Positions 1,206 through 20,769 of a stretch of 63,042 nt of DNA are shown piece after piece (the first letter of the stretch is position 1; each line of letters starts with the position of its first letter). The notes under the pieces are model-generated. The model was not told the DNA's origin. It did not search any database and saw only the letters and a program-made list of their open reading frames with translations. Location: IMG/VR virus record IMGVR_UViG_3300038701_001110, positions 1 through 63,042 of that record; one strand, given 5' to 3'. The stretch comes from a virus. A program made the position numbers and the translations under genes.

Positions 1206-1206
1206 C

Positions 1207-1660: not shown

Positions 1661-1679
1661 ATTATACGGATCGTATAAC
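1661..1679. promoter_or_regulatory. Early-arm palindrome copy (ATTATACG-GAT-CGTATAAC)
   Basis: Lies 35 nt upstream of the start of the minus-strand gene 1225-1626. The first base is A instead of G. Confidence 0.6.
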
Positions 1680-1760
1680 AGTGCCATCCTTGTCATGCTT
1701 AACCGTGACTTAGTCAACCCTTATTCGTGTCAAAACTTGATCCTATTTTGACAAAGTTAC

Positions 1761-2153
1761 GAATGTTCCTAGGAAAGTTCCATAGTTTAATGATTAAACG
1801 GAACATTTAACCCGTTGATGTCAAACGATAATTTAGGAATGTTCCGAATGTTCCGCCTCTGGAGGGGATAAGCTTTCTTGAACGAGCGAGAGAGCGGCGG
1901 AATGCGCCACGACGCACCACAGCCCCAAACCCCCAAATCTCCAGACCTCTAAAGCGTTATTTTTGGCTACTTTCGGAACTTTAGGACTTTCCTTGAAAAT
2001 CAAGCACTTACGAGGGACCATGCACGGAAGCCCCTTTTATTTAGAGAAATCAATAACTTACCTACTACTACTACACATGCTAAGGAAAAAATTATCCAAC
2101 AAAATCAGTGCCTTGAGAAAGTTCCCTAGCCTGCGGAACTTTCTGGAACATTG
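1761..2153. repeat. Cluster of GAAWGTTCC 9-mers in both orientations inside an AT-rich non-coding island
   Basis: Forward copies at 1761, 1773, 1837, 1846 (the last two abutting) and 2117. Reverse copies (GGAACWTTN) at 1800, 1975, 2135 and 2145. Degenerate copies at 1984 and 2153. No ORF here has an RBS. Confidence 0.8.
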
Positions 2154-2201
2154 CGAACAAATTCCCGTATAACTATTTTTAACCACGTATAGTCCCATCT
2201 A

Positions 2202-2230
2202 TTGACATATACTTGTTTTTGTGGTATTGT
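2202..2230 (+). promoter_or_regulatory. Candidate sigma70-type promoter
   Basis: TTGACA (2202-2207), 17-nt spacer, TATTGT (2225-2230), at the right edge of the AT-rich island and pointing into the early genes. Confidence 0.5.
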
Positions 2231-2315
2231 GTAAGGGTCGGTTGGCACCCTGCCTCCCGGCCCGGGCCTCGGCCCGGCGCTCTTTATCATTGTTGGTTTG
2301 TGCCACAGCTAGGCC

Positions 2316-2334
2316 GTTATACGTCCCGTATAAC
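2316..2334 (+). promoter_or_regulatory. Early-arm palindrome copy
   Basis: GTTATACG-TCC-CGTATAAC; ends 7 nt before ATG 2342. Confidence 0.7.
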
Positions 2335-2341
2335 CAAGCCG

Positions 2342-2533
2342 ATGATGCGAGGATTGTGGTGCCATTGCTCGACGCGGGGAGTTACGCTAACGCTCCTGCA
2401 CCGCGCGAGTGCCGGCGTTCTGACGGAGTGCTTATGCACCCGTGATGTGACACCGAACGCCCAGCCCTGCCCGATTGAAACCCGGAAGCAGACGCATGCG
2501 CAATCCGCAACAAATGGACAACAGCTAGGGTAG
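2342..2533 (+). CDS. Possible Cys-rich 63-aa protein (MMRGLWCHCSTRG...)
   Basis: ATG follows the palindrome but there is no Shine-Dalgarno sequence. It is the internal part of track ORF 2213-2533. This stretch could instead be untranslated leader or ncRNA. Confidence 0.3.
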   Translation: MMRGLWCHCSTRGVTLTLLHRASAGVLTECLCTRDVTPNAQPCPIETRKQTHAQSATNGQQLG

Positions 2534-2575
2534 CCCCACACGGGGCTGCCTCATGGTGCTGTCCGCACCCGTGCC

Positions 2576-2594
2576 GTTATACGGCGCGTATAAC
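2576..2594 (+). promoter_or_regulatory. Early-arm palindrome copy
   Basis: GTTATACG-GCG-CGTATAAC; ends 14 nt before ATG 2609. Preceded by the hairpin AGCCCC-ACAC-GGGGCT (2532-2547). Confidence 0.7.
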
Positions 2595-2608
2595 CAAGGA
2601 GATGAATC

Positions 2609-2731
2609 ATGAAGCCCAAACACAAGCGCGCCCTGCGCCTGCGCTACTACGCCGAGGCGACGTTCGGCGTCGTAAGCCTGTGTATCGCAGGCTACGCTGG
2701 CTGGCTGCTGGCTGCAGCCGTTCTCAACTGA
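2609..2731 (+). CDS. 40-aa membrane micro-protein (MKPKHKRALRLRYYAEATFGVVSLCIAGYAGWLLAAAVLN)
   Basis: GGAG 7 nt before the ATG, a basic N-terminus and one TM-like helix. Below the 60-aa threshold of the track. Confidence 0.55.
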   Translation: MKPKHKRALRLRYYAEATFGVVSLCIAGYAGWLLAAAVLN

Positions 2732-2744
2732 GGAGGAATAAATC

Positions 2745-2927
2745 ATGACTGACCTCAACTACGAAGCCTGCTTCGACCAGCTGCCGCGCCACCAGCGCGA
2801 GGTGCTGGACTATATCGTCCAGCCTGATGAACCCCTCACCCATGCCTCGATCATGGTAGGGGGCATGAACCCCAACAACGTCAAATCCAAGTACCGGGAG
2901 GAGCAGTATGCGACCTACGGCGCATGA
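2745..2927 (+). CDS. Hypothetical protein, 60 aa
   Basis: GAGGAGG RBS 8 nt before the ATG; packed tightly with its neighbours. Confidence 0.7.
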   Translation: MTDLNYEACFDQLPRHQREVLDYIVQPDEPLTHASIMVGGMNPNNVKSKYREEQYATYGA

Positions 2928-3129
2928 GCCCGAATGCACCGAGTGCGGAGAGAGCTACGACCAGCGCCGCGCGGCGCTGGGATACTCAACGTGCCTCGAC
3001 TGCGGGGACGCCGCCGCTGCAAGCGAACGGGCCTCGTGGTGTATCGCACCAGCCGGCCATAAGCAGGGTGAGACACTGGTGCGAGACCCAGCGCACCTAA
3101 AACAAATCAACAAGTATGCGGCGGGCTGA
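2908..3129 (+). CDS. Zinc-ribbon protein, 73 aa (CTEC...CLDC)
   Basis: GGAGGAG RBS, a 20-nt overlap with the previous gene, and two CxxC pairs. Confidence 0.7.
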   Translation: MRPTAHEPECTECGESYDQRRAALGYSTCLDCGDAAAASERASWCIAPAGHKQGETLVRDPAHLKQINKYAAG

Positions 3130-3136
3130 GCCCGCC

Positions 3137-3155
3137 GTTATACGGAGTGTATAAC
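3137..3155 (+). promoter_or_regulatory. Early-arm palindrome copy (7-bp arms, 5-nt centre)
   Basis: GTTATAC-GGAGT-GTATAAC; ends 1 nt before ATG 3157. Preceded by the hairpin GCGGGC-TGA-GCCCGC (3121-3135), which contains the upstream stop codon. Confidence 0.7.
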
Positions 3156-3156
3156 G

Positions 3157-3378
3157 ATGAAAAACTACGGCAACGGCTACGGCTACGGCAACGGCAACGG
3201 CTACGGCTACGGCGACGGCTACGGCGACGGCAACGGCACCGGCACCGGCTATGGCAACGGCTATGGCAACGGCTACGGCGACGGCAACGGCTACGGCTAC
3301 GGCTACGGCGACGGCTACGGCGACGGCACCGGCACCGGCAAAGGCGACGGCGACGGCTGCGGCCACGGCTACGAATAG
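3157..3378 (+). CDS. Gly/Tyr/Asn/Asp repeat protein 1, 73 aa (MKNYGNGYGYGNGNGYGYGDGYGDG...GHGYE)
   Basis: The ATG and the TAG bracket the repeat block exactly. No SD; the palindrome abuts the ATG. All six frames are open here, and the frame choice is argued in the findings. Confidence 0.55.
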   Translation: MKNYGNGYGYGNGNGYGYGDGYGDGNGTGTGYGNGYGNGYGDGNGYGYGYGDGYGDGTGTGKGDGDGCGHGYE

Positions 3379-3388
3379 GGACGGTATC

Positions 3389-3646
3389 ATGACACACAAC
3401 GGCAGAGGCGATGGCTACGGCGACGGCAGCGGCGACGGCTACGGTTACGGTTACGGTTACGGCAACGGTTACGGCAACGGTGACGGCAACGGTTACGGAA
3501 ACGGCTACGGCTACGGCAACGGCAGCGGCGAAGGCGATGGCTACGGCTATGGTAACGGCTACGGCATCGGCACCGGCACCGGCATCGGCAACGGCGACGG
3601 CGACGGCTACGGCTATGGTAACGGCTACGGCAACGGCGACGGATAA
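3389..3646 (+). CDS. Gly/Tyr/Asn/Asp repeat protein 2, 85 aa (MTHNGRGDGYGDGSGDGYGYGYGYGNG...GNGDG)
   Basis: The GY frame shifts by +1 relative to ORF 1 and is again bounded by an ATG and a TAA at the block edges. Gly codons vary GGC/GGT/GGA, which is synonymous only in this frame. Confidence 0.55.
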   Translation: MTHNGRGDGYGDGSGDGYGYGYGYGNGYGNGDGNGYGNGYGYGNGSGEGDGYGYGNGYGIGTGTGIGNGDGDGYGYGNGYGNGDG

Positions 3647-3679
3647 AAAACAACAAACACATCGAAAAGGAGAAACACG

Positions 3680-3985
3680 ATGTATGATAAGGGAACGAAA
3701 GTGATCATTCGAAGCTCAGAGTCTGGTGTCCATCATGGAACACTGACTGACTACAGCCTCGACGGTGGATGGGTTCGGCTTGAGAACTCCCGGCGCCTAT
3801 GGAGCTGGAAGACGGCCAACGACGGGATCAGCCTGAGCGAGATCGCGATTGCAGGGATCGACCAGAGCGAGAGCAAGATCACCGACACCCTGCCGGACAT
3901 CATTATCATAGGGGTGTGTGAGATCATCCCCACATTCGGGATGGCAGACGTCACCATCGAAGGTGCCCCCGTGGCGAAAGCATGA
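3680..3985 (+). CDS. Hypothetical protein, 101 aa
   Basis: AAGGAGA RBS 6 nt before the ATG. Confidence 0.8.
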   Translation: MYDKGTKVIIRSSESGVHHGTLTDYSLDGGWVRLENSRRLWSWKTANDGISLSEIAIAGIDQSESKITDTLPDIIIIGVCEIIPTFGMADVTIEGAPVAKA

Positions 3986-3990
3986 TCGCC

Positions 3991-4009
3991 GTTATACGAC
4001 GCGTATAAC
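3991..4009 (+). promoter_or_regulatory. Early-arm palindrome copy
   Basis: GTTATACG-ACG-CGTATAAC; ends 22 nt before ATG 4032, followed by CAAAGGAG. Confidence 0.7.
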
Positions 4010-4031
4010 AATGACCAAAGGAGACTAAATC

Positions 4032-4808
4032 ATGGCATTCACTGTAAATATGGACTGGCGCGACTGCGTCGATAGCTACGCAAGTGCTCTTCAACTGCAC
4101 ACCAAAGCCGAGGCTAAGCCTTGGCGTAACGGGGGTGAGGATTACCCCCTACCTAACAAGCGCGTGCGTCACATGGGCGTGCGCAAGCTGCCTGACGGCA
4201 GCATCGCCTTCCGCTTCCACCGCACCGACGTGGTGACGTGGCATCCCGACGAGACCTACACGCTGGTTCCGTGGCAGTCGCAGAGCACCTGCGAGTTCGC
4301 CAACACGTTTCTGCCCAGCGGGCACTACCTGCACAGGGTCGGAACCTGCCTCACCATGGGTGGGTGGCACAATGGCACCACTTACCCCGTCGACTACGAC
4401 AGCACGGTGCATATCAACCCCGAAACCAACGCCCCGACACACCCCCTCAAGAGTGTGTTCCGCAAGCGCAAGGTCGACCGCAAGAAGGCCAAGGTGCTGC
4501 TCGCTGAGACTAACTACACCGAGTATCGCGAGTGGTGGAAGCTGATGCTGTCTATGAGCGGCACCGGGGAGCGCAACTGGGATGTGAACGCCCACAACCT
4601 GAAGGAATACCTCGCCGACCGGGACAAGTGGCATGACCTGATGTGCTCGTACTACGGCAATCCGGACACTATCCGCGAGTTTATCTACGATACCACATTC
4701 GGTGATCGCTCCCCCTACCACCACGAGCACGCCGACACCCTGCCTGCAAACACACGCGTCATCTCCGACACCGTAGGGTCGGGGTGGCATATCACTGGAC
4801 GCAACTGA
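4032..4808 (+). CDS. Hypothetical protein, 258 aa
   Basis: AAGGAGA RBS and a long ORF with coding-like composition. No motif recognised. Confidence 0.85.
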   Translation: MAFTVNMDWRDCVDSYASALQLHTKAEAKPWRNGGEDYPLPNKRVRHMGVRKLPDGSIAFRFHRTDVVTWHPDETYTLVPWQSQSTCEFANTFLPSGHYLHRVGTCLTMGGWHNGTTYPVDYDSTVHINPETNAPTHPLKSVFRKRKVDRKKAKVLLAETNYTEYREWWKLMLSMSGTGERNWDVNAHNLKEYLADRDKWHDLMCSYYGNPDTIREFIYDTTFGDRSPYHHEHADTLPANTRVISDTVGSGWHITGRN

Positions 4809-4820
4809 AGGAGACAAGAC

Positions 4821-5120
4821 ATGATGACTAACGACCCGAACGAGACCGCCGACCCAGAGATCACGAAGCAAGTGAGCGTGGCTCTCGATGCGTTCAACAA
4901 CGCCCTGCCTGACACCCTACGCACATACCATGTGATCGGCATCCTTGTGTCGATCATCCGCAACTTCACATCGGACAGCCGAGACGCCGCCGATCTCATG
5001 AAGGACCTGCTGCTTGCGCTCGCGGAATCATACACCATGGACGAGCAGAGCTTCGGACCCGACACCGACGAGTGCATGTGTTCCGCCTGCGTGGCGGCAC
5101 GCAAAGCTCAGGCTCACTAG
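4821..5120 (+). CDS. Hypothetical acidic protein, 99 aa
   Basis: AAGGAGA RBS. Confidence 0.8.
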   Translation: MMTNDPNETADPEITKQVSVALDAFNNALPDTLRTYHVIGILVSIIRNFTSDSRDAADLMKDLLLALAESYTMDEQSFGPDTDECMCSACVAARKAQAH

Positions 5121-5176
5121 GGTTGCATCCCAAGGTAAATCATGGTAACATAGTCTAGGTAAAACAGGAGACGACC

Positions 5177-5674
5177 ATGGTTCAACCTACCGGTGAGGGA
5201 AACACAGCGTATCAACATGGCCATTCAAGAAGGGGGAATAAGAGCACACTATACATACGTTGGCAAAATATGAAGGCTCGATGCCATCAGCCTTCCAACA
5301 AAGACTACCCCAGATATGGTGCGGTTGGTATCACAGTGTGTGACCGTTGGCGTTACGGTGAGAACGGGGTTAGCGGCTTCTCTCTATTCTTGGAGGACAT
5401 GGGGGAGCCGCCTTTCCCGTCAGCAAGCATCGACAGGATCGACGGAAGCAAAGGATACTGCGCCGAAAACTGCCGGTGGGCGGACGTTCAAACCCAGACA
5501 GTGAACAGGCGCACCACCAAGTGGCTTACCATAGATGGAGAGACCAAACCCTTGACCGAATGGGCGAGGCAAGTTGGTGTCGGACCAAAGACAATCCACT
5601 ACAGGCTCAAGAAAGGTTTGAGCCACAAAGATGCAGTTTTCCTACCCACGGATCGTGGGAGGAGACTCAGATAG
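5177..5674 (+). CDS. Homing-endonuclease-like DNA-binding protein, 165 aa; N-terminal domain paralogous to 16170-16835
   Basis: Pattern YxxWxxMKxRCxxPxxxxYxxYGxxGITVCDRW...F..DMG...SIDRID....Y...NCRWA..Q..NRR, shared with the polymerase-inserted gene. C-terminal HTH-like segment. Visibly lower GC than its neighbours. Confidence 0.6.
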   Translation: MVQPTGEGNTAYQHGHSRRGNKSTLYIRWQNMKARCHQPSNKDYPRYGAVGITVCDRWRYGENGVSGFSLFLEDMGEPPFPSASIDRIDGSKGYCAENCRWADVQTQTVNRRTTKWLTIDGETKPLTEWARQVGVGPKTIHYRLKKGLSHKDAVFLPTDRGRRLR

Positions 5675-5680
5675 GGCGTC

Positions 5681-5699
5681 GTTATACGCCCCGTATAAC
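5681..5699 (+). promoter_or_regulatory. Early-arm palindrome copy
   Basis: GTTATACG-CCC-CGTATAAC; ends 18 nt before ATG 5718. Confidence 0.7.
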
Positions 5700-5717
5700 A
5701 CCAAGGAGAAATGAGAG

Positions 5718-6809
5718 ATGAACCAAGCACATACCATGTATCTCGTGAGCCTCGATCAAGCGACGAACCTGATCAAGGTGGGTGGTCACAAGCGCACCGT
5801 TCTGGTGCAGGGCCATACCGGCACAGGTAAGAGTTCTATCCTGCGCACCCTCGCTCAGGAGATGCCGACCCACACGGCGTGCTACTTCGACTGCACCACG
5901 AAGGACTTGGGCGACATCATGATCCCCAAGATGAAGGACCTCGACGGGCAGGACTACGTGCAGTTCGCCACCAACGAGGAGCTGGGTCTGCACCTGCGGG
6001 ACAAGCCGATCATCCTGATGATCGACGAATACGGCAAGGCCAACCCGATGGTGAAGAACGCCCTGCTGCGCCTCATGCTGGAGCGTCAGGTTGGCAGCTA
6101 CAAGCTGCACCCGGAGAGCATTGTGTTCGCTACCACCAACCTCGGCGCCGAGGGTGTCGGGGACATTCTGCCACCCCATGCACGCAACCGCATAACAGTG
6201 GTGCAGAGTCGCAAGCCGTCCCATACCGACTGGATCGAGTGGGGTATCAACAACGGTATCGACCACAGCCTGCTCGGCTGGGTGCGTGACAACCCGCAGC
6301 TGTTCCAGTCCTTCGAGGATGTGCAGTCGCCTGACGAGAACCCCTACATCTACCACCCACGCTCGCAGCGCGCTGCGTTCGTGACGCCTCGCTCCCTTGA
6401 GGCTGCGTCGGACTGGCTCAAGCTGCGTGACGGGCTCGACGACCAGACCGTGACCGCTGCCCTGATGGGTACTATCGGTGATCGTGCGGCGATGGACCTG
6501 ATGGCGTTTGTGCGACTGGCTGATGACCTGCCGACAATGAAGCAGATCAAGGAGGATCCCGAGAACGCACCGGTGCCGCAGTCGCCGGCCGCCGCCTGTA
6601 TGGTGGTGTTCCGCACACTGTCCAGCATCGAGATTGACTGGGTCGACGCGTGGGTGACCTACGTCAAGCGCATGAGCGACGAGGCTGTCGGCGTGTTCAT
6701 CAACGGCGTACGCACCCCGAAATACAGCAGGGCTGGTGTGGTCATGACCAACAATAGCTTCACCGATCTCGTGCGTGACCGGTCCTACCTGTTCACCGCA
6801 GACCAGTGA
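5718..6809 (+). CDS. AAA+ ATPase, MoxR/CobS-like, 363 aa
   Basis: Walker A GHTGTGKS, Walker B ILMIDEYG, and an arginine-containing segment (PHARNR) after sensor 1. Adjacent to a VWA partner. Confidence 0.8.
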   Translation: MNQAHTMYLVSLDQATNLIKVGGHKRTVLVQGHTGTGKSSILRTLAQEMPTHTACYFDCTTKDLGDIMIPKMKDLDGQDYVQFATNEELGLHLRDKPIILMIDEYGKANPMVKNALLRLMLERQVGSYKLHPESIVFATTNLGAEGVGDILPPHARNRITVVQSRKPSHTDWIEWGINNGIDHSLLGWVRDNPQLFQSFEDVQSPDENPYIYHPRSQRAAFVTPRSLEAASDWLKLRDGLDDQTVTAALMGTIGDRAAMDLMAFVRLADDLPTMKQIKEDPENAPVPQSPAAACMVVFRTLSSIEIDWVDAWVTYVKRMSDEAVGVFINGVRTPKYSRAGVVMTNNSFTDLVRDRSYLFTADQ

Positions 6810-6826
6810 GACAATCAGCGAGGCGC

Positions 6827-6845
6827 GTTATGCGCCTCGCATAAC
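6827..6845 (+). promoter_or_regulatory. Early-arm palindrome copy (G:C covariant stem)
   Basis: GTTATGCG-CCT-CGCATAAC; ends 17 nt before ATG 6863. Overlaps a perfect 9-bp competing hairpin, GCGAGGCGC-GTTAT-GCGCCTCGC (6818-6840). Confidence 0.7.
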
Positions 6846-6862
6846 CATGGGAGAAGTAACCA

Positions 6863-8095: not shown

Positions 8096-8104
8096 ACGAA
8101 GGAG

Positions 8105-8695: not shown

Positions 8696-8705
8696 GCGTC
8701 TCACT

Positions 8706-8727
8706 GTATAGCCCCACGGGGCTATAC
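8706..8727 (+). other. Strong hairpin after the stop codon (GTATAGCCCC/GGGGCTATAC)
   Basis: 10-nt perfect inverted repeat with no U-tract. Similar in its AGCCCCAC..GGGGCT core to the hairpin at 2532-2547. Confidence 0.6.
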
Positions 8728-8749
8728 TATCGGGTGCTCACCCGGCGCC

Positions 8750-8768
8750 GTTATACGCGGCGTATAAC
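8750..8768 (+). promoter_or_regulatory. Early-arm palindrome copy
   Basis: GTTATACG-CGG-CGTATAAC; ends 14 nt before ATG 8783. Confidence 0.7.
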
Positions 8769-8782
8769 CAAAGGAGACTAAC

Positions 8783-9701: not shown

Positions 9702-9720
9702 GTTATGCGCCCCGCATAAC
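9702..9720 (+). promoter_or_regulatory. Early-arm palindrome copy (G:C covariant stem)
   Basis: GTTATGCG-CCC-CGCATAAC; ends 16 nt before ATG 9737. A competing 8-bp helix pairs GCGGGGCG (9689-9696) with CGCCCCGC (9708-9715). Confidence 0.7.
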
Positions 9721-10769: not shown

Positions 10770-11076
10770 GAAGAAAGTGAAACAGAAAGTGGTGGCAGTG
10801 CTCAAGAAGCACGGCGCCTATTATTTCTATCCGGTGACGGGGGGATACGGATCAAGCGGGGTGCCTGATATTATCGCTTGCGTCGCTGGTCAGTTTGTTG
10901 GTATAGAGTGTAAAGCGGGTAAAAACCGCCCAACAAAACTACAGGAGGCTAACCTAGACAAAATAGCAGAGTGTGGGGGGATCGCACTCATCATCAATGA
11001 AACTAATGTTCATGTGCTCGACACCATGCTGAGCCAACTAGGAGAAAGCAATGACTATGACAATGACAACATTTGA
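10753..11076 (+). CDS. VRR-NUC-type PD-(D/E)xK nuclease, 107 aa
   Basis: GVPDIIACVAGQFVGIECK...Q motif order typical of VRR-NUC. GAGGAAG RBS before ATG 10753. Confidence 0.7.
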   Translation: MAMTPEKKVKQKVVAVLKKHGAYYFYPVTGGYGSSGVPDIIACVAGQFVGIECKAGKNRPTKLQEANLDKIAECGGIALIINETNVHVLDTMLSQLGESNDYDNDNI

Positions 11077-11593
11077 GCGTCGCGTCCCTGTCGTGGCGGA
11101 CATCGTGATCTACAAGGTTCTGCCGACAGGCGTTGCGTTTGCGGAACGCTACGACACCGGCGAGAATGTGTACATCAACCACAGTGTGGCAGCCATCTCC
11201 GGCGTCCGAGAGGGGGACGTTCGGAAAGCGAAACTGGTAACAAACAACGGCCCGTCGACAACGCCTTGGTTTGCAACATACGTCGCCAAGGCTGTGGAAG
11301 CTGCGGTCGAACCAGAGCTTGAACTGGACCTCCAGACGGAGCCCGAGCCGGAATTGCACACTGAGCCAGAGATGAGCCATGAAGCTTTGGCAATGAAGCT
11401 CATTGACGAGATGACGCTCGTGTCAACGCAAGAGGTGCGCGAGGAGCTCGGCATCAACCCTGTGGAGGCGTCCAACCTGCTCATGCGCCTGCACCGCAAG
11501 GGGCTTCTGCAGCGGGTCGAAGTGTACAAGGCCCACGATCAGTCTCGGGCGTCTCGCCGACTCTGGACCAAGGACATCGAGCTGGTTCTGTGA
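11051..11593 (+). CDS. Hypothetical protein with acidic linker and C-terminal winged-helix-like segment, 180 aa
   Basis: AGGAGA RBS. The EPELELDLQTEPEPELHTEPE linker is followed by a helical region resembling a wHTH. Confidence 0.75.
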   Translation: MTMTMTTFERRVPVVADIVIYKVLPTGVAFAERYDTGENVYINHSVAAISGVREGDVRKAKLVTNNGPSTTPWFATYVAKAVEAAVEPELELDLQTEPEPELHTEPEMSHEALAMKLIDEMTLVSTQEVREELGINPVEASNLLMRLHRKGLLQRVEVYKAHDQSRASRRLWTKDIELVL

Positions 11594-11732: not shown

Positions 11733-11751
11733 GTTATACGACCCGCATAAC
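11733..11751 (+). promoter_or_regulatory. Early-arm palindrome copy (one A/C mismatch)
   Basis: GTTATACG-ACC-CGCATAAC; ends 21 nt before ATG 11773. A competing 6-bp helix pairs GGGTCG (11728-11733) with CGACCC (11739-11744). Confidence 0.7.
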
Positions 11752-13736: not shown

Positions 13737-13911
13737 CGCAGAGAAGCGAGCCTTTTCCGCAGGGATCGAGGCGGCAAAGAAGGAATATCGCAGGCTGCAA
13801 ACGGGGCTCCCGGTCGGTGCATCTGACGGGCAGACTTTCACAATCCGACATGTCAGTGCCGAAGAGTTTGACGAAGCCCTCCGCTCCCTCGCAGAGCGGG
13901 AGGGGGAGTGA
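13729..13911 (+). CDS. Hypothetical protein, 60 aa
   Basis: AAGGAGA RBS and an 8-nt overlap with the upstream gene. Confidence 0.65.
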   Translation: MTDAEKRAFSAGIEAAKKEYRRLQTGLPVGASDGQTFTIRHVSAEEFDEALRSLAEREGE

Positions 13912-14177
13912 TGATCAACGGTAACCGCGCTCGCGTGGAGGAGCTGACCATGCAAGGCTGGTCGGCATCCGAGATCGGCAGGGAGCTTGGTATATCTGCG
14001 AGCACAGTCTACGCGCACAGGCATGAAGCGCGGCGAAGACAGAAAAACCCAATGCCAGACACACCTGTTGTGTTGGCAGGCGGGCGACCGAGAAAACACA
14101 ACCAAGGAGAAGGTGATGACGAAAAGAGAAGAGATGGTGTGGAACTACATCCTGCGCAACAGGCAGGCCACGGCTGA
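13908..14177 (+). CDS. Small HTH protein, 89 aa
   Basis: GWSASEIGRELGISASTVYAHR looks like a sigma-70 region 4 / LuxR-type helix-turn-helix. ATGA overlap with the upstream gene. Confidence 0.65.
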   Translation: MMINGNRARVEELTMQGWSASEIGRELGISASTVYAHRHEARRRQKNPMPDTPVVLAGGRPRKHNQGEGDDEKRRDGVELHPAQQAGHG

Positions 14178-16144: not shown

Positions 16145-16818
16145 TGTGGTAAAACCACAGGAGGTCACAATGGCAAATTCAACGTATCATGAGCGCGGAA
16201 AACTGATCAACGGGATGCACCCTAGGGAGCACCCGAACTACAGCGTGTGGGCCAATATGAAGAGGCGCTGCAATAGTCCAAGCGCGAGCGGCTATAAGAA
16301 CTACGGGGGTCGCGGTATAACCTACGACCCCCGTTGGGAAGACTTCGAACCGTTCTGCATTGATATGGGAGTTCGACCGAGTAGCGAGCACACCATCGAA
16401 CGCATTGACAACGACGGGGACTACAACAAAGCCAACTGCATTTGGGCGGACAAGGCAACTCAGGCTCAGAATCGACGGCGCTTTTCGAACAACACCAGCG
16501 GCAGGACCGGTATCAAAAGGAAAGGCGACAGATATACAGCACAGGTTAACTACAATAAAAAGAGATACAAGGTTGGTGGAACTTTCAAAACCATGGAAGA
16601 GGCACACGCCGCGAGGTTGGCACTGATAGATGCCCTTCGTTCTGGGAAAGACGTGTCGACGATGCTTGAGAGGCCTCCGCGTTACGACTCATCCACTGGC
16701 ATAAGGGGGATTAGTGTGCACAGCAAGGGAGGCTTCATAGTAAGGACGACTGTTGGGGGCGAACGCAAATACCTTGGTTATTTCAAGACACTGAGTGAGG
16801 CTAAAAGGGCGTTGGAAG
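16145..16818 (+). mobile_element. Homing-endonuclease gene insertion that splits the polymerase gene
   Basis: The 674 nt between the two polymerase ORFs are almost fully occupied by an independently translated endonuclease-type ORF with its own AGGAGG RBS, in a third reading frame. Confidence 0.7.
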
Positions 16819-16835
16819 ATGCGAAGCAGGGCTGA
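16170..16835 (+). CDS. Free-standing homing-endonuclease-like protein with two AP2-type DNA-binding repeats, 221 aa
   Basis: The N-terminal domain is paralogous to 5177-5674 (WANMKRRC...YKNYGGRGIT...DMG...IERIDNDGDY..NC.WA..Q..NRR). It is followed by GIKRKGDRYTAQVNYNKKRYKVGGTFKTMEEAHAAR and GISVHSKGGFIVRTTVGGERKYLGYFKTLSEAKRA. Confidence 0.7.
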   Translation: MANSTYHERGKLINGMHPREHPNYSVWANMKRRCNSPSASGYKNYGGRGITYDPRWEDFEPFCIDMGVRPSSEHTIERIDNDGDYNKANCIWADKATQAQNRRRFSNNTSGRTGIKRKGDRYTAQVNYNKKRYKVGGTFKTMEEAHAARLALIDALRSGKDVSTMLERPPRYDSSTGIRGISVHSKGGFIVRTTVGGERKYLGYFKTLSEAKRALEDAKQG

Positions 16836-17748
16836 GATCGAGGCGGAGATGGAACGTCTAAAGGCGGAAATCAAAGAGTGTGAGACCATGGCGGATTCAT
16901 ATAAAATTTCTTTGAACGGGACCTTCGGGAAGACGTCGAGCCAATACAGCACGATCTACTCCCCGAAGTTTATGATCCAGACCACCCTCACCGGGCAGCT
17001 CAGCTTGCTCATGCTGATTGAGGTTCTGGAGCTTGTCGGCATCCCCGTTGTGTCTGCGAACACCGACGGCGTGGTCATCAAGTGTCCGCGCGATAGGCTG
17101 GACGACCTCTCTGCTATCATCGCCAAGTGGGAGAAACGCACCGGGCTCGAGACCGAAGAGACTCGATACGCAGCGCTCTATTCCCGCGACGTGAACAACT
17201 ACATCGCTGTGAAGGAGGACGGCGGTGCCAAGGTAAAGGGTGTGTTCGCCGAACCATCCCTCAGCAAGAACCCGCAGAACCCGATCTGCGCTGAGGCGGT
17301 CGTGCGGCACCTGACCAACGGGGAAGAGATCTCCGATGTGGTGCGCGGATGCAAGGACATCACCAAGTTCCTGACCCTTCGCACGGTGACAGGTGGGGCT
17401 GTGAAGGATGGTCAGCCGCTCGGCAAGGCGATCCGCTGGTATTACTCCGATGGAGAGAAGGGCACGATCAACTACGCCACCAATGGCAACACGGTGCCGA
17501 AGTCGTTCGGCGCCAAGCCGGCGCTGGACCTTCCGGAAAAGTTCCCGTCCGACGTCGACTACGACTGGTATATACGAGAGTGCGGCGAGATCCTCATGGC
17601 AGTCGGCGCGCGCCCTCGGCCAGTGATGGCAAAAATACCTAGAAAGAATAGTAAGGCTTGGAAAGCACTACGTGATGAGGGTAAGATCGTCGAGCAGCCA
17701 GACGGCAAGAAGTGGGTCTGGGCCGAAGGAGAGGGAGTTTTGGGATGA
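16819..17748 (+). CDS. Family-B DNA polymerase, C-terminal fragment (motifs B and C, thumb), 309 aa
   Basis: Motif B KISLNGTFGK and motif C SANTDGV. ATG 16819 lies inside the 3' end of the endonuclease ORF. The track start is GTG 16795. Confidence 0.75.
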   Translation: MRSRAEIEAEMERLKAEIKECETMADSYKISLNGTFGKTSSQYSTIYSPKFMIQTTLTGQLSLLMLIEVLELVGIPVVSANTDGVVIKCPRDRLDDLSAIIAKWEKRTGLETEETRYAALYSRDVNNYIAVKEDGGAKVKGVFAEPSLSKNPQNPICAEAVVRHLTNGEEISDVVRGCKDITKFLTLRTVTGGAVKDGQPLGKAIRWYYSDGEKGTINYATNGNTVPKSFGAKPALDLPEKFPSDVDYDWYIRECGEILMAVGARPRPVMAKIPRKNSKAWKALRDEGKIVEQPDGKKWVWAEGEGVLG

Positions 17749-18230
17749 TCGGACGACTGTTTGGGAAGACAAAGGTAACGACGGAGCGTGCCGAAGACGA
17801 AGGTACGATACCGGAGGGGTGGCAAACCAGATCGCTATCTGAGGCTGAGAGAGAGGCGTTGGAGCAGATTTCGAACCGAACGGTATGGAACGGGTCGCTT
17901 GGTGGGGTCTCCGTAGGCCAACAGGCACACAGCTACAACACAAGCATCCACAACGCAACGACTTACCCTCCAAAGCTGTACCTTGGGAGTGAGGTTCTCA
18001 GTGAAAACATGTTGTCAGTGATTAAGATGTCCGATTGTGCTCACCCGGCTTTGCGCGAGAGCCTTGTTGAAACGCTCATCGCACTTGCCGACAGCGACTC
18101 TGTCTCCGACAGGGCTTTTGCTGTCATGCACAAAGATCTGCCCGAAGCGAAACGGATCATGATGCTTTCGGACGACGATCAGAACGTGGTGGAAATTGCG
18201 AAAACCATTTTGGAGTGGGCAGATGAGTAA
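17745..18230 (+). CDS. Hypothetical protein, 161 aa
   Basis: ATGA overlap with the polymerase stop. GGAGAGGGAG upstream. Confidence 0.7.
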   Translation: MIGRLFGKTKVTTERAEDEGTIPEGWQTRSLSEAEREALEQISNRTVWNGSLGGVSVGQQAHSYNTSIHNATTYPPKLYLGSEVLSENMLSVIKMSDCAHPALRESLVETLIALADSDSVSDRAFAVMHKDLPEAKRIMMLSDDDQNVVEIAKTILEWADE

Positions 18231-18891
18231 GGTAGCACCGTGGTCATTCAGCCGCATCAAGGCGTTCGACACATGTCCGAAGCAGTTCTACCACACGTAT
18301 ATCCTCAAGGAGTTTCCGTATGAGGAGACCGAGGCTATGCGCTATGGGACGGAGTTTCACAAGGCGGCCGAGGACTATATCGGGAAAGGGTCGCCAGTTC
18401 CCGAGCGCTTTGCCTTCGCTCAGCCGATGCTGGATGCACTCAACGCCAAGCCCGGCACAAAGCACTGCGAGCTTAAGTTCGGACTGACGCGCAACCTCGA
18501 GCCGTGCGGGTTCTTTGACTCTGATGTGTGGTTCCGCGGTGTCGTTGACCTTGCGATCATCGACGGGGACCGCGCGTGGGTGGTCGACTACAAGACCGGC
18601 AAGTCCTCCCGCTATGCCGAGAAGGGTCAGCTTGAACTCATGGCTCTGGCACTGATGGCTCACTTTCCCGAGGTCAAGACAGTCAGCGCTGCGCTCGTGT
18701 TCGTCATCGCCAACGACGTTGTGAAGGTGAAATACGACATCACCGAGCGTGGCGAGATGTGGGCGAAATGGCTTTCAGAGTATGCTAAGATGGAGAAAGC
18801 CGCCGAGACTGGCGTGTGGAACCCGAAATCTTCGGGCCTCTGCCGAGCCCATTGCAAGGTTCTGGAGTGCCCCCACAACGGCAGGAGCTGA
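18223..18891 (+). CDS. PD-(D/E)xK nuclease with Cas4-like Cys cluster, 222 aa
   Basis: FDTCPKQFY near the N-terminus, VVDLAIIDGDRAWVVDYKTGK, and CRAHCKVLECP at the C-terminus. Confidence 0.75.
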   Translation: MSKVAPWSFSRIKAFDTCPKQFYHTYILKEFPYEETEAMRYGTEFHKAAEDYIGKGSPVPERFAFAQPMLDALNAKPGTKHCELKFGLTRNLEPCGFFDSDVWFRGVVDLAIIDGDRAWVVDYKTGKSSRYAEKGQLELMALALMAHFPEVKTVSAALVFVIANDVVKVKYDITERGEMWAKWLSEYAKMEKAAETGVWNPKSSGLCRAHCKVLECPHNGRS

Positions 18892-18893
18892 CG

Positions 18894-19184
18894 ATGCCGT
18901 ACAAGAACCCCGAACGAGACCGTAACTACAAGCGGGAGTACAAGCTTCAGCAGGCGAGGGGGGAGAACCCCGCCAGAGCTGAGCGCGCCAAGGCGCGACG
19001 GGCGTTCGACAAGAAGCACGGGCGGAAGGCCCGGGAAGGTCTCGACATCAGCCACAACAAGGCTATCGCCCGTGGTGGGAGCAACTCTGACGGCACGCGC
19101 CTTGAGAGTCCATCGAGCAACCGGGCGCGGGGAGGCGCCATGAGCAAACCACACACGAAGACAAAGCGCCGTCGGCGCTCATAG
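18894..19184 (+). CDS. Small basic protein with HNH-like remnant, 96 aa
   Basis: AGGAG RBS. DISHNKAIARGGSNSDGTRLESPSSNR resembles an HNH core. Very basic tail. Confidence 0.6.
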   Translation: MPYKNPERDRNYKREYKLQQARGENPARAERAKARRAFDKKHGRKAREGLDISHNKAIARGGSNSDGTRLESPSSNRARGGAMSKPHTKTKRRRRS

Positions 19185-19202
19185 TTATACGCCTCGTATA
19201 AC
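19184..19202 (+). promoter_or_regulatory. Early-arm palindrome copy
   Basis: GTTATACG-CCT-CGTATAAC; ends 13 nt before ATG 19216. Preceded by the hairpin AGCGCC-GTC-GGCGCT. Confidence 0.7.
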
Positions 19203-19215
19203 CAAAGGAGAGACC

Positions 19216-20748
19216 ATGGAGATCGTGGACAACAAGGCGTTGCGCCTGAAGCTGCGCAACCCTCAGCAGGTGCTGACCACCATACCGGAAAGCCGGGCCA
19301 TCGGGCCCAACGAAGTCCTCGTCAAGTGGGATGTGCCTCAGGTGCACCGCTTGCGGAGCATGAACATCGACGTGCCTTCTCCGATCCAGCGCTACAACTG
19401 GCCGGGAAAATACAAACCGTTCGAGCATCAGAAGGTGACCGCGGAGTTCTTGGTGAACAACCCGAAGGCGTTTTGCTTCTCGGACATGGGGACCGGGAAG
19501 ACCGCCTCTGCGATATGGGCGGCAGACTTTCTCATGACGCGGGGTATCATAAACCGGGCGCTGATCTTGTGCCCTGTTTCGATCATGGACGCAGCGTGGA
19601 GAGCGGACCTGTTTTCATTCGCCATGCACAGGAAGGTCGACATCGCGCACGGCTCCGCCGACAAGCGGCGCAAAGTCATAGCCAGCGATGCGGAGTTTGT
19701 CATCATCAACTTCGACGGCACCAAGGTTGTGAAGGATGAGATCGCGAACGGCGGGTTCGACCTGATCATTGTGGACGAGGCAAGTGCGTATAAGACGGCG
19801 ACCACACAGCGCTGGAAGACCCTGAAAAGCCTTATCGGTCCGGACACATGGCTCTGGATGATGACGGGGACACCTGCCGCACAGGGGCCGCAGGATGCCT
19901 ATGGTCTAGCAAAGCTGGTCAATCCGGCTGGCCTGCCTCGCACATTCGCTGGTTACAGGGACATGGTGATGTACAAGGTCACCCAGTTCAAGTGGGAGCC
20001 GAAACCGAACGCAACCGACACCGTTCACCAGATACTACAACCGGCCATCCGCTTCGCAAAGGAAGACTGCCTCGACCTGCCAGAGATGACCTACGTGGAT
20101 AGGCACGTCGAGCTGACCCCGCAGCAGCGGGCCTATTACAACAAGCTTCGGAAACAGCTCCTCATGCAGGCGGCAGGCGAGACAGTCACAGCTGCGAATG
20201 CAGCGGTGGCGATGAACAAGCTTCTCCAGATCAGCTGTGGCGCTGTCTACACCGACGACGGGAACACCTTGGAGTTCGACATCAAGAACCGCTACTCGGT
20301 GCTGAAGGAGGTTGTCGACGAATCCGCCAACAAGGTCATCGTGTTCGTCCCGTTTCAGAGTAGCATCGAGGCGCTGTCGGCGAAGCTGAACAGCGATGGT
20401 GTGACGGCCGAGATCATCAACGGCTCCGTCCCTGCCGGGAAGCGGACAGAGATCTTCAAGAAGTTCCAGACAGAGACACACCCGCAGGTGCTTGTCGTGC
20501 AGCCTCAGGCCGCCGCGCACGGCGTCACTCTGACAGCGGCGGACACAATCGTGTGGTGGTCACCGACCCCCTCTCTTGAGATTTACTCTCAGGCCAACGC
20601 CCGCATCCACAGGTCCGGTCAGAAGAACAAGTGCACCGTCGTGAAGCTAGGCGGATCTGCTGTGGAGAGGAAGCTGTACGACATGCTGGACAAGAAGCTC
20701 GACGCGCAGTCGAAAATCATCAAACTCTACGAAGAAATACTTGCGTAG
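19216..20748 (+). CDS. SNF2-family (SF2) helicase, 510 aa
   Basis: Motif I DMGTGKT, motif II IVDEASAYK, motif VI QANARIHRSGQKN. Confidence 0.85.
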   Translation: MEIVDNKALRLKLRNPQQVLTTIPESRAIGPNEVLVKWDVPQVHRLRSMNIDVPSPIQRYNWPGKYKPFEHQKVTAEFLVNNPKAFCFSDMGTGKTASAIWAADFLMTRGIINRALILCPVSIMDAAWRADLFSFAMHRKVDIAHGSADKRRKVIASDAEFVIINFDGTKVVKDEIANGGFDLIIVDEASAYKTATTQRWKTLKSLIGPDTWLWMMTGTPAAQGPQDAYGLAKLVNPAGLPRTFAGYRDMVMYKVTQFKWEPKPNATDTVHQILQPAIRFAKEDCLDLPEMTYVDRHVELTPQQRAYYNKLRKQLLMQAAGETVTAANAAVAMNKLLQISCGAVYTDDGNTLEFDIKNRYSVLKEVVDESANKVIVFVPFQSSIEALSAKLNSDGVTAEIINGSVPAGKRTEIFKKFQTETHPQVLVVQPQAAAHGVTLTAADTIVWWSPTPSLEIYSQANARIHRSGQKNKCTVVKLGGSAVERKLYDMLDKKLDAQSKIIKLYEEILA

Positions 20749-20753
20749 ACTGT

Positions 20754-20769
20754 TTATAGTTACTATAGT
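20754..20769 (+). promoter_or_regulatory. Divergent palindrome TTTATAGT-T-ACTATAG
   Basis: Occupies the same position as the canonical palindrome (26 nt before ATG 20796, followed by CCAAAGGAG), but the arms are TATAGT/ACTATA. Confidence 0.4.

What the first reader, a model, noticed from the sequence alone, without database searches (positions are those of the whole stretch)
1661..20769. 19-bp palindrome GTTATRCG-N3-CGYATAAC placed just upstream of at least ten early-arm start codons and absent from the late arm
Copies lie at 2316, 2576, 3137, 3991, 5681, 6827, 8750, 9702, 11733 and 19184, plus 1661 before the leftward gene and a divergent version at 20754. Each ends 1-22 nt before a start codon and is usually followed by C(C)AAAGGAG. 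I found none in the 37-kb late arm. No phage RNA polymerase gene is recognisable, so this is unlikely to be a phage-RNAP promoter. Two copies (6827, 9702) carry A-to-G in the left arm together with T-to-C in the right arm, which keeps the arms complementary. The 3-nt centre is free to vary. Paired changes of this kind are what selection on a hairpin (RNA or cruciform) would produce, though a dimeric operator is not excluded. The element could be an mRNA processing or stability element, a translational control hairpin set next to the RBS, or a regulon operator that marks a defined subset of early genes. That subset includes the Gly/Tyr ORF, the AAA+, VWA and DUF3150-like genes, and the SNF2 helicase.
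Basis: seen in the sequence. Interest (0 to 1): 0.7.

Follow-up and report, generated by a model that had tools for sequence, protein, structure and literature searches.

The report
Conserved palindromic operator punctuating phage early genes
A 19-bp palindrome that sits before about ten early genes of an uncultured phage is real and conserved across its whole phage family, behaves like a protein-binding DNA site rather than an RNA hairpin, and has the same sequence as the control site of a bacterial toxin-antitoxin (Doc) operon whose regulator the phage does not encode.

Summary
GTTATRCG-N3-CGYATAAC occurs 9 times exactly and twice with one mismatch, against 0 expected, all within 1661-19202. 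The '20754 copy' is a different sequence.

The motif is a family trait. About 45 loci from uncultured relatives (45-60% protein identity) give 110 distinct copies. The 16 specified bases stay intact while the flanks diverge.

The arms are conserved as sequence, not as pairs. Of 35 variant cells, 20 break pairing, 11 are wobble and 4 are compensated. In about a third of copies a stronger alternative hairpin (upstream flank paired with the GC-rich spacer) excludes the arm-arm hairpin. In four copies the spacer supplies the GGAG ribosome-binding site, so the motif is transcribed. No -35 box and no phage RNA polymerase were found.

The same 16 bases lie 3-36 nt upstream of AbrB-type 'doc_partner' antidote plus Doc toxin operons in 30 genomes, nearly all Hyphomicrobiales or other Alphaproteobacteria. 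There the left arm is spaced like the -10 box. The phage encodes no homologue of that antidote.

Best reading (confidence about 0.5): a double-stranded DNA operator for a dimeric protein that marks a regulon of early units. The binder is unresolved. It is either a host doc_partner-like protein or a phage winged-helix/HTH protein.

The parts
1661..1679 (.). Motif copy ATTATACGGATCGTATAAC (1 mismatch). It lies 34 nt before the leftward ATG at 1626. Read leftward it ends in TATAAT.
2316..2334 (.). Motif copy with spacer TCC. It follows a sigma70-like promoter and a terminator-like hairpin and lies 7-10 nt before ATGATG (63-aa ORF, no SD).
2576..2594 (.). Motif copy with spacer GCG. The upstream flank gtgcc pairs with GGCGC (alternative hairpin). 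It lies 14 nt before ATG 2609.
3137..3155 (.). Motif copy (1 mismatch) with spacer GAG, so that G8 plus GAG reads GGAG. This GGAG is the only SD for the ATG at 3157, 1 nt after the motif (Gly/Tyr-rich ORF).
3991..4009 (.). Motif copy, 22 nt before ATG 4032 (258-aa protein with no family match).
5681..5699 (.). Motif copy, 18 nt before ATG 5718 (AAA+ ATPase).
6827..6845 (.). Motif copy with G6/C14, 17 nt before ATG 6863 (DUF2201 metallopeptidase/VWA). The flank gaggcgc pairs with GCGCCTC, giving a -21.9 kcal/mol alternative hairpin.
8750..8768 (.). Motif copy, 14 nt before ATG 8783 (DUF3150).
9702..9720 (.). Motif copy with G6/C14, 16 nt before ATG 9737 (phrog_5162).
11733..11751 (.). Motif copy with an A6/C14 mismatch. 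The flank gggtc pairs with GACCC. It lies 21 nt before ATG 11773.
19184..19202 (.). Motif copy, 13 nt before ATG 19216 (SNF2 helicase). Its first base is the last base of the upstream stop codon. The orthologous position in relatives also carries the motif.
62903..62915 (.). Degenerate core ATACGTTGCGTAT. It is at the position of the relatives' first copy, which heads the leftward TerS/TerL operon.
1150..1219 (.). Two degenerate cores (ATACGCCGCGTAT at 1150-1162, ATACGCGGCGTAT at 1207-1219). They lie inside roughly 57-95-bp repeats that carry TCGCCAGTTCCC boxes, like the repeat units in the relatives' control region.
2166..2173 (+). Isolated right half-site CGTATAAC, 16 nt downstream of a GGAAC box.
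2202..2230 (+). Near-consensus sigma70-type promoter TTGACA-17-(TG)TATTGT at the head of the early arm. A terminator-like hairpin follows at 2262-2277.
20741..20769 (+). It is not a motif copy. It reads TTGCGT-17-TATAGT, with a 6-1-6 palindrome TATAGTTACTATA, before ATG 20796.
   Evidence: sequence reading; below the scan's threshold
11051..11593 (+). Candidate phage-encoded binder. This 180-aa core protein has an N-terminal OB fold (like the Rho RNA-binding domain, cold-shock proteins and IF1) and a C-terminal MarR-like winged helix.
13908..14177 (+). Small HTH protein (HTH_23, sigma70 region 4-like). Alternative candidate binder.
21188..21454 (+). Small HTH_17 (excisionase-type) DNA-binding protein. 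Alternative candidate binder.

Best explanation
The palindrome is a double-stranded DNA binding site (operator) for a dimeric, sequence-specific protein. Each 8-bp arm is one half-site and the 3-bp spacer is not read.

The site sits in almost every sizeable intergenic gap of the rightward early arm, between an upstream GC-rich hairpin and the ribosome-binding site. It also sits before the leftward gene. It therefore defines a regulon of about 11 units.

I infer that a bound protein represses these units. It would act as a roadblock to host RNA polymerase coming from the few sigma70-type promoters, mainly the one at 2202-2230. This is how the multi-copy operators of some temperate phages work.

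The binder is not identified. The same palindrome is the promoter-overlapping operator of AbrB-type 'doc_partner' antidote plus Doc toxin operons in Hyphomicrobiales, and the phage has no homologue of that antidote. So the binder is either a doc_partner-like protein supplied by the host cell, or an unrelated phage protein. The phage candidates are the OB plus winged-helix protein at 11051-11593 and the small HTH proteins at 13908 and 21188. I rate the two possibilities about equal.

Shown: the motif is real, enriched, conserved as sequence, transcribed, lacks a -35 box, and is identical to the toxin-antitoxin operator. Inferred: protein binding, repression, and the identity of the binder.
For: Enrichment: 9 exact plus 2 near-exact copies against 0 expected.

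Family-wide conservation: 110 distinct copies in about 45 loci at 45-60% protein identity. The motif is kept at orthologous gene starts (AAA+, VWA, SNF2) while the flanks diverge.

Sequence rather than pairing is conserved. All 16 specified columns are at least 90% conserved (6 invariant). Of 35 variant cells, 20 are unpaired, 11 are wobble and 4 are compensated. The spacer varies freely, with GGG and CCC about equally common. Isolated half-sites are almost absent.

The motif is transcribed: in four copies G8 plus a GAG spacer gives the GGAG used by an ATG 0-2 nt after the motif.

No TTG-type -35 box lies 17 nt upstream of the left arm in phage copies (1 of 108, the same as in shifted controls).

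The same palindrome lies 3-36 nt upstream of doc_partner (TIGR02609, 71-73 bits) plus Doc (TIGR01550) operons. This holds in 30 of 69 genome hits and 19 of 120 metagenome hits. In 10 of 26 host loci TTGTAC, TTGAAC or another TTG-type hexamer lies 16-18 nt (mostly 17) upstream of the left arm, where a -35 box would be if the left arm were the -10 box. More distant homologues of that antidote have GTTATAAC-type sequences upstream.

The window holds conserved proteins with DNA-binding folds.
Against: No protein has been shown to bind the site.

The phage and the fetched relatives have no homologue of the antidote.

The spacer is 85% G+C in phage copies but 77% A+T in host operators. The two kinds of site are therefore not under identical constraints.

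A strand-specific signal exists that a symmetric DNA site does not need. In 34 of 107 copies the upstream flank is complementary to the spacer, against 11.7 +/- 2.8 with permuted flanks.

Most copies follow GC-rich hairpins (sequence reading). That layout also fits terminator-plus-promoter modules.

Four compensated cells exceed the shuffle expectation of 0.6 (1 of 500 shuffles).

The match with the toxin-antitoxin operator could be a coincidence. I estimate this at the few-per-cent level.
Confidence: 0.5

Rival explanations
1. RNA-level element. In the polycistronic early mRNA the region folds into one of two mutually exclusive hairpins: arm with arm, or upstream flank with spacer. It would act as an intercistronic processing, stability or attenuation signal, or as a switch next to the ribosome-binding site.
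For: The motif is transcribed (SD inside the spacer). Flank-spacer complementarity is strand-specific and significant (34 of 107 against 11.7 +/- 2.8; CG-to-GC flips). It is concentrated in gene-proximal copies (30 of 34). The predicted hairpins are stable (-11 to -22 kcal/mol). The AU-rich arm that follows a GC hairpin resembles an RNase E-type site or a weak terminator (inference). A conserved phage protein has an OB fold like the Rho RNA-binding domain and cold-shock proteins.
Against: An RNA stem rarely needs 16 fixed bases, yet here sequence is conserved and pairing is not. Two thirds of copies lack the alternative hairpin. The spacer, which would be the loop, shows no strand preference (GGG 26, CCC 21). 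No Rfam family matches. There is no U-tract. An RNA role does not explain the identity with a promoter-overlapping toxin-antitoxin operator.
Confidence: 0.15
2. Phage-specific promoter read by an unrecognised polymerase or sigma-like factor. One example would be an N4-style hairpin promoter (short stem, 3-nt loop) used by a virion-delivered RNA polymerase.
For: This is a 19-bp conserved element before genes, usually after GC-rich hairpins (sequence reading). It has an 8-bp stem and a 3-nt loop. Several early proteins resemble those of N4-like phages (VWA, AAA, Nmad5). The 1922-aa virion protein shares a segment with an N4-like virion RNA polymerase.
Against: The shared segment (residues 693-859 here, about 2118-2290 in the Vibrio phage PG11 protein) contains an HExxH motif. 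By my recollection of N4, the polymerase domain is roughly residues 998-2103, so this segment lies after it. Nothing aligns to that domain. No RNA polymerase family hit was found in any ORF scanned. The loop centre is not conserved. Unpaired arm variants are tolerated. Copies whose spacer is the SD must be transcribed from upstream. The host toxin-antitoxin operons carry the same site.
Confidence: 0.1
3. Promoter for host RNA polymerase, with one arm (TATACG or TATAAC) acting as a -10 box as in the host toxin-antitoxin operon. The module would have been copied through the early arm as a mobile promoter cassette.
For: In host loci the left arm is spaced 16-18 nt (mostly 17) from TTG-type hexamers. 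Copy 1661, and several copies in relative L029, read TATAAT in one direction. The SD follows directly, as in the host operon.
Against: Phage copies have no -35 box (1 of 108) and no TGn extension. The GC-rich spacer sits where melting would be needed. The arms lack the final T of a -10 hexamer. A start 6-8 nt after TATAAC would cut off the conserved SD (sequence reading).
Confidence: 0.08

Closest known systems
Autoregulatory operators of type II toxin-antitoxin operons, specifically AbrB-type 'doc_partner' antidote (TIGR02609) plus Doc toxin (TIGR01550) modules of Hyphomicrobiales
   Same: All 16 specified bases and the 3-bp spacing are identical. The site lies directly upstream of GGAG and the start codon.
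   Different: In hosts there are one or two sites per operon. They overlap a -35/-10 promoter, have A/T-rich spacers and lie next to the gene of the presumed binder. In the phage there are 11 or more sites per genome, with no -35 box, G/C-rich spacers and no antidote gene. That the antidote binds this site is inferred from the general rule of toxin-antitoxin autoregulation. It was not shown for this family.
Multi-copy dispersed operators of temperate phages: mycobacteriophage L5 'stoperators', Streptomyces phiC31 conserved inverted repeats, P1 C1 operators (from my own knowledge)
   Same: Many copies of one short conserved site lie in short intergenic gaps of the early or lytic genes. The site is bound by one regulator that silences transcription units, partly by blocking elongation.
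   Different: Those phages encode the repressor and are temperate. L5 and P1 sites are asymmetric and orientation-dependent. Here no repressor gene and no integrase is recognisable, and the site is a perfect palindrome.
Start-associated sequences (SAS/ESAS) of Cluster K mycobacteriophages (from my own knowledge)
   Same: A conserved short sequence lies immediately upstream of the start codons of a subset of genes. Its function is untested.
   Different: SAS is asymmetric and includes the ribosome-binding site. This motif is a palindrome placed 5' of the SD.
N4 virion-RNA-polymerase hairpin promoters (from my own knowledge)
   Same: An inverted repeat with a 3-nt loop lies in the early region of a podovirus whose replication genes resemble those of N4-like phages.
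   Different: There is no polymerase domain. There are ten or more copies rather than three. The loop is not conserved and pairing is not maintained.

Membership tests
Operator of an AbrB-type (doc_partner) antitoxin | Sequence and spacing equal to the sites upstream of the antitoxin genes | tested here: met
   16 of 16 specified bases with a 3-bp spacer. In 30 of 69 genome hits and 19 of 120 metagenome hits a doc_partner gene lies within 450 nt.
Operator of an AbrB-type (doc_partner) antitoxin | Cognate antitoxin encoded in the same genome, normally adjacent | tested here: not met
   No hit in six-frame ORFs of the window or of the family loci with profiles of host, viral and reference AbrB/MazE proteins. 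A viral-contig scan for relatives of the antidote returned none of the family contigs. The one profile hint (11051-11593) turned out to be an OB fold.
Operator of an AbrB-type (doc_partner) antitoxin | Overlaps the -35/-10 promoter it represses | tested here: not met
   Hosts: TTG-type hexamer 16-18 nt upstream of the left arm in 10 of 26 loci. Phage: 1 of 108, equal to shifted controls.
Operator of an AbrB-type (doc_partner) antitoxin | Bound by the antitoxin or the toxin-antitoxin complex | not testable with these tools
   Needs EMSA, footprinting or ChIP.
Structured RNA hairpin element | Base pairing kept through compensatory change | tested here: not met
   Arms: 4 compensated, 11 wobble and 20 unpaired variant cells. 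A competing flank-spacer hairpin is more stable in several copies.
Structured RNA hairpin element | Match to a described RNA family | tested here: not met
   No Rfam match at gathering threshold in the whole window.
N4-type hairpin promoter | Virion RNA polymerase with a T7-like catalytic domain | tested here: not met
   Only residues 693-859 (with an HExxH motif) of the 1922-aa protein match, aligning to about 2118-2290 of a 3449-aa virion RNA polymerase.
N4-type hairpin promoter | Short stem with a 3-nt loop and specific loop/stem bases | tested here: inconclusive
   The geometry fits (8-bp stem, 3-nt loop), but the loop centre is G or C about equally often.
Sigma70-type promoter | -35 and -10 hexamers 16-18 bp apart | tested here: not met
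   Neither arm ends in the conserved T.
Intrinsic terminator | GC-rich hairpin followed by a U-tract | tested here: not met
   None of the copies is listed by the terminator scan. The arms are AU-rich and are followed by C(A)AAGGAG.
Phage multi-copy operator regulon (L5 stoperator / phiC31 CIR type) | Many copies of one site in intergenic gaps of one arm | tested here: met
   11 copies in 1661-19202 and none elsewhere at up to 3 mismatches. Relatives carry 13 copies in 6.8-10.7 kb.
Phage multi-copy operator regulon (L5 stoperator / phiC31 CIR type) | Phage-encoded repressor that binds the site | tested here: inconclusive
   Three proteins with DNA-binding folds exist. None is linked to the site.

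The most novel reading that the evidence does not exclude
A family of lytic phages that encodes no matching regulator has seeded its first-entering (early) DNA with 10-20 copies of the operator of a host AbrB-type antidote / Doc toxin module. The phage would use a labile host antitoxin as the repressor or timer of its early genes. Alternatively, the sites would act as DNA decoys that titrate the antitoxin or the toxin-antitoxin complex to sense or defuse abortive infection. In a search of the held literature I found no report of a phage carrying arrays of a toxin-antitoxin operator.
Probability: 0.22. Interest if true: 0.85.

Novelty: new variant of a known kind. Interest (0 to 1): 0.62.

Why it matters
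Multi-copy operators that silence whole blocks of phage genes are known from a few temperate phages that carry their own repressor. Here the same layout appears in an uncultured, apparently lytic podovirus family related to the HTVC023P-type and roseophage CRP-901-type phages. No cognate regulator is recognisable, and the site matches that of a bacterial Doc toxin-antitoxin operon.

If a host antitoxin binds these sites, this would be a direct molecular link between a toxin-antitoxin regulator and phage early gene control or counter-defence. It would also give a sequence-based clue to the host of an uncultured phage clade. If a phage protein binds them, the motif still defines the early regulon of this clade and gives a clean target for EMSA and reporter work.

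Tried and rejected
- Phage or virion RNA polymerase. Pfam, PHROGs and NCBIfam scans of essentially all sizeable ORFs found none. A PHROG 'virion RNA polymerase' hit (E 6e-7) was traced to a 170-aa segment containing an HExxH motif, by my recollection outside the polymerase domain.
- AbrB-like regulator in the phage. hhalign gave 63% probability (E 7e-5) for residues 38-68 of protein 11051-11593, and weak PDB and Pfam hits pointed the same way. The AlphaFold model (pLDDT 74; domains 80-90) and Foldseek show an OB fold plus a winged helix instead.
- Sigma70 promoter reading: no -35 box.
- ECF-type reading (AAC-N16-CGT). Only the isolated half-site at 2166 has a GGAAC box 16 nt upstream. The palindromes do not.
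- tRNA and Rfam scans: nothing.
- GenBank phages. There is no near DNA match to the window and no phage with the motif variants. Caulobacter phage RW has the same genome layout but no recurrent palindrome.
- Literature. Searches for the sequence itself and for antitoxin-operator decoys in phages found nothing relevant. The HTVC023P paper mentions no RNA polymerase or promoter.
- Prophage origin of host hits. Only L087 shows a weak terminase match, and its motif lies inside what reads as coding sequence.
- Doc toxin homologue in the phage: none.

Full report
**1. The observation**

The pattern GTTATRCGNNNCGYATAAC matches 9 times exactly, at 2316, 2576, 3991, 5681, 6827, 8750, 9702, 11733 and 19184. 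Dinucleotide shuffles give 0.00 matches. With up to 3 mismatches there are 12 matches against 0.37 expected. This adds 1661 and 3137 (one mismatch each) and 18285 (three mismatches, inside a gene, at chance level).

All copies lie in 1661-19202. Isolated half-sites are almost absent: CGTATAAC occurs alone only at 2166 on the + strand and at 27787 on the - strand.

Every rightward copy ends 1-22 nt before a start codon and is usually followed by C(A)AAGGAG. Copy 1661 lies 34 nt before the leftward ATG at 1626.

It is a 6-1-6 palindrome, TATAGTTACTATA, whose TATAGT lies 17 nt after TTGCGT. The consensus scan did not list it as a promoter.

Three degenerate cores ATACG-N3-CGTAT occur at 1150, 1207 and 62903.

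**2. What the window is**

The first and last 127 bases are the same run of a 9-bp repeat. This suggests a circular assembly of about 62.9 kb, that is, a complete genome.

The genome is a podovirus-like phage. Terminase and portal are 41-47% identical to Pelagibacter phages HTVC023P and HTVC027P, phage 023Pt_psg01, Planktothrix phage Pag-Yong1 and roseophages CRP-901 and CRP-902.

The rightward arm (about 2.3-25.5 kb) encodes these proteins:
- an AAA+ ATPase
- a DUF2201 metallopeptidase/VWA protein
- Nmad5
- DUF3150
- an Hjc-like resolvase
- a DNA polymerase split by an HNH gene
- a PD-(D/E)XK nuclease
- an SNF2 helicase
- a primase-helicase

No RNA polymerase family was hit in any scan.

Two sigma70-type promoter candidates lie on the early strand: TTGACA-17-(TG)TATTGT at 2202-2230 and TTGCAT-17-TAACAT before the HNH gene at 5177 (sequence reading).

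**3. The motif is a family trait**

Exact-pattern scans of viral, metagenome and genome collections were run. They returned about 45 loci that encode relatives of window proteins at 45-60% identity (65-72% DNA identity where alignable). These loci come from JGI/IMG, ENA and TARA metagenome records; I could not verify the sample environments.

The loci hold 110 distinct copies. Copy density can be high: 13 copies in 6.8 kb in L002 and 13 in 10.7 kb in L008.

At orthologous gene starts (AAA+, VWA, SNF2) the 16 specified bases are intact while the spacer and flanks differ.

67 of 110 copies have an SD plus a start codon within 35 nt downstream, against 16 on the other side. The remaining copies lie in a non-coding control region next to the terminase operon, some inside tandem repeats.

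In relatives the first copy lies 280-430 bp from the TerS-like gene, at the head of the leftward late operon. The window has only the degenerate core at 62903 at that position. So the element is not strictly 'early'. The long late arm simply has one entry point.

No GenBank phage carries the motif. Caulobacter phage RW has the same genome layout but no recurrent palindrome.

**4. Hairpin or protein site?**

On 103 aligned copies all 16 specified columns are at least 90% conserved (6 invariant). Of the 35 cells that depart from the consensus pair, 20 are unpaired, 11 are G-U type and 4 are changed on both sides. Those 4 are the window's 6827 and 9702 and two copies of one relative. Four is more than the 0.6 expected from shuffles (1 of 500), but relatedness of the copies can produce this. 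The dominant pattern is that each arm varies on its own.

The spacer is 85% G+C and shows no strand preference (GGG 26, CCC 21).

A second, strand-specific signal exists. In 34 of 107 copies the 14 nt upstream contain a perfect complement of at least 5 bp that covers the spacer. Permuted flanks give 11.7 +/- 2.8, with a maximum of 23. The downstream flank gives 5 against 1.7. At fixed register the three spacer columns show CG-to-GC flips in 18-24 sequences.

This alternative hairpin puts the left arm in its loop and excludes arm-arm pairing. It is the predicted minimum-energy fold at 2576, 6827, 8750 and 11733 (-11 to -22 kcal/mol). The arm-arm hairpin alone is worth about -6 kcal/mol.

In four copies (window 3137, L181 1760 and 2061, L021 3358) the spacer is GAG, so that G8 plus GAG gives GGAG 8-10 nt before an ATG that follows the motif directly. 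The motif is therefore part of the mRNA.

Taken together, the arms look like two half-sites read as sequence on duplex DNA. The RNA hairpin formed by the arms is not what is conserved. The flank-spacer hairpin is a separate RNA-level layer. It could be a stabilising or terminating hairpin of the upstream cistron. It could also be a way to keep the arms from pairing next to the SD (inference).

**5. The same palindrome in bacteria**

The genome scan gave 69 hits. By my rough estimate this is about the number expected by chance for 16 fixed bases in 596 Gb.

In 30 of them a small gene lies within 450 nt, typically 3-36 nt downstream of the motif. These 30 are nearly all Hyphomicrobiales or other Alphaproteobacteria. 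Examples are Bradyrhizobium, Rhodopseudomonas, Bosea, Methylocapsa, Enterovirga, Phreatobacter, Bauldia and Hyphomicrobium.

The small gene encodes 'MKLEVKKIGNSTGLILPKELL...'. It matches Pfam MazE_antitoxin and NCBIfam TIGR02609 'doc_partner' at 71-73 bits, above the cut-off of 55.9. The next gene, overlapping by 4 nt, matches TIGR01550, the death-on-curing (Doc) toxin. 19 of 120 metagenome hits are of the same kind.

Many host loci have a second, imperfect palindrome GTTGTAC-N5-GTATAAC 3-4 nt upstream. In 10 of 26 loci TTGTAC, TTGAAC or another TTG-type hexamer lies 16-18 nt (mostly 17) before TATACG of the left arm. This is the layout of a promoter whose -10 box and start site are covered by the operator. 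It is the established mode of autoregulation in type II toxin-antitoxin operons.

More distant homologues of the antidote in other viral contigs have GTTATAAC-type sequences upstream. So 'GTTATA' half-sites appear to go with this protein family.

Phage copies differ in two ways. They have no -35 box (1 of 108). Their spacers are GC-rich, while host spacers are 77% A+T. Both differences fit sites that bind a protein but do not need to melt.

**6. Who binds?**

The window, the fetched family loci and the family's long IMG/VR contigs contain no detectable homologue of the antidote or of Doc.

A profile-profile screen of 210 conserved window ORFs gave one hint: protein 11051-11593, at 63% probability and E 7e-5. 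The structure model built from 12 homologues (pLDDT 74; both domains 80-90) shows an N-terminal OB fold plus a MarR-like winged helix. The OB fold matches the Rho RNA-binding domain, IF1 and cold-shock proteins. It is not an AbrB fold.

This protein is a core gene of the family and remains a candidate binder. So do the small HTH proteins at 13908-14177 and 21188-21454.

The leftward Zn-ribbon gene next to copy 1661 has no counterpart in the relatives' equivalent region. It is unlikely to be the core regulator.

I estimate the chance that an unrelated regulator shares all 16 bases and the spacing at a few per cent. Weighed against the strong prior that phages encode their own regulators, the host-protein and phage-protein readings come out about equal.

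**7. Rivals**

- A phage or virion RNA polymerase promoter would fit the hairpin-motif-SD layout and the N4-like flavour of several genes. However, the only similarity to a virion RNA polymerase is a segment containing an HExxH motif (residues 693-859, aligned to about 2118-2290 of the Vibrio phage PG11 protein). By my recollection of N4 this lies outside the polymerase domain.
- A host-polymerase promoter is unlikely without a -35 box and with a GC-rich spacer.
- An RNA-level role remains possible for the flank-spacer hairpin. It does not explain the fixed arm sequences or the identity with a promoter-overlapping operator.

**8. Verdict**

The element is real, strongly non-random and conserved across an uncultured phage clade. 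It is best read as a multi-copy DNA operator that marks about 11 early units (confidence about 0.5). Repression by roadblock is the inferred action.

It is a new variant of the dispersed-operator design known from L5, phiC31 and P1. It has two unusual features: no recognisable cognate regulator in the phage, and sequence identity with the operator of a Doc toxin-antitoxin module. The most novel reading not excluded is that the phage co-opts or titrates a host antitoxin. I give it a probability of about 0.2.

Noticed in passing
window 1762-2152: Nine of the window's 13 GGAACWTT boxes (2.5 expected) cluster on both strands in the AT-rich divergent control region between the leftward gene and the early arm. 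One of them (2145) lies 16 nt upstream of the isolated half-site CGTATAAC at 2166, which is ECF-sigma-like spacing. Relatives have GTTCC/GGAAC boxes in the same region.
   Followed up: partly
window 1-127 and 62916-63042: Identical 127-bp ends made of the 9-bp repeat GATGGCGGC (14 copies each). This is probably a circular-assembly overlap, so the true array length is unknown. The array lies between the late-operon head and gene 309-944.
   Followed up: partly
window 1060-1225; relatives L002 1161-1300, L008 4200-4400, L029 4880-5000: Repeat units that combine a motif copy or a degenerate core with a TC(A/G)CCAGTT(N)CC...CAGCAG box. The box ATCACCAGTTAC also follows many gene-proximal copies in relatives, for example before the Hjc-like resolvase gene. 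This is a second conserved box of unknown role.
   Followed up: partly
about one third of family copies; window 2576, 6827, 8750, 11733: The upstream flank is complementary to the GC-rich spacer, with CG-to-GC flips. This gives a strong alternative hairpin with the left arm in its loop. It is strand-specific and concentrated at gene-proximal copies.
   Followed up: yes
window 25583-31351 (-): A 1922-aa virion protein. Its N-terminus matches a virion structural PHROG. Residues 693-859 contain an HExxH motif and are homologous to a post-polymerase segment of N4-like virion RNA polymerases. Its C-terminus matches a DarB-like PHROG. There is an 18-bp tandem repeat (11 copies) at 29704-29902.
   Followed up: partly
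window 15029-17748: The DNA polymerase (phrog_1252) is split into two ORFs (15029-16144 and 16849-17748) by an HNH endonuclease gene (16170-16835). Two further HNH genes lie at 5177-5674 and 43524-44051. The latter is the only clear + strand gene inside the late arm.
   Followed up: no
window 3157-3704: A hexanucleotide repeat (CTACGG, about 80 copies, 3165-3642) underlies the Gly/Tyr-rich ORF and an overlapping Thr/Ala-rich ORF. It is unclear which frame, if any, is expressed beyond 3378.
   Followed up: no
window 62738-62808: Two copies of GGTGTACGAAATACAC (5-bp arms, 5-nt spacer), about 53 bp apart, in the leader of the leftward terminase operon. They resemble the imperfect upstream operator GTTGTAC-N5-GTATAAC of the host toxin-antitoxin loci.
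   Followed up: no
window 2908-3129: A conserved 73-aa early protein with a CxxC-N15-CxxC zinc finger, reminiscent of TraR/DksA-type polymerase-binding proteins. Neither Pfam nor NCBIfam confirms this.
   Followed up: partly
host loci L080 (7701) and L084 (7448): In two toxin-antitoxin loci the palindrome extends outward to include GGAG on one side and CTCC on the other (18-bp and 17-bp arms). In RNA this would sequester the ribosome-binding site.
   Followed up: no
window 12553-12786 and 45347-45755: Tandem repeats of 67-77 bp inside ORF 12363-13118, and of 138 bp inside the late arm.
   Followed up: no
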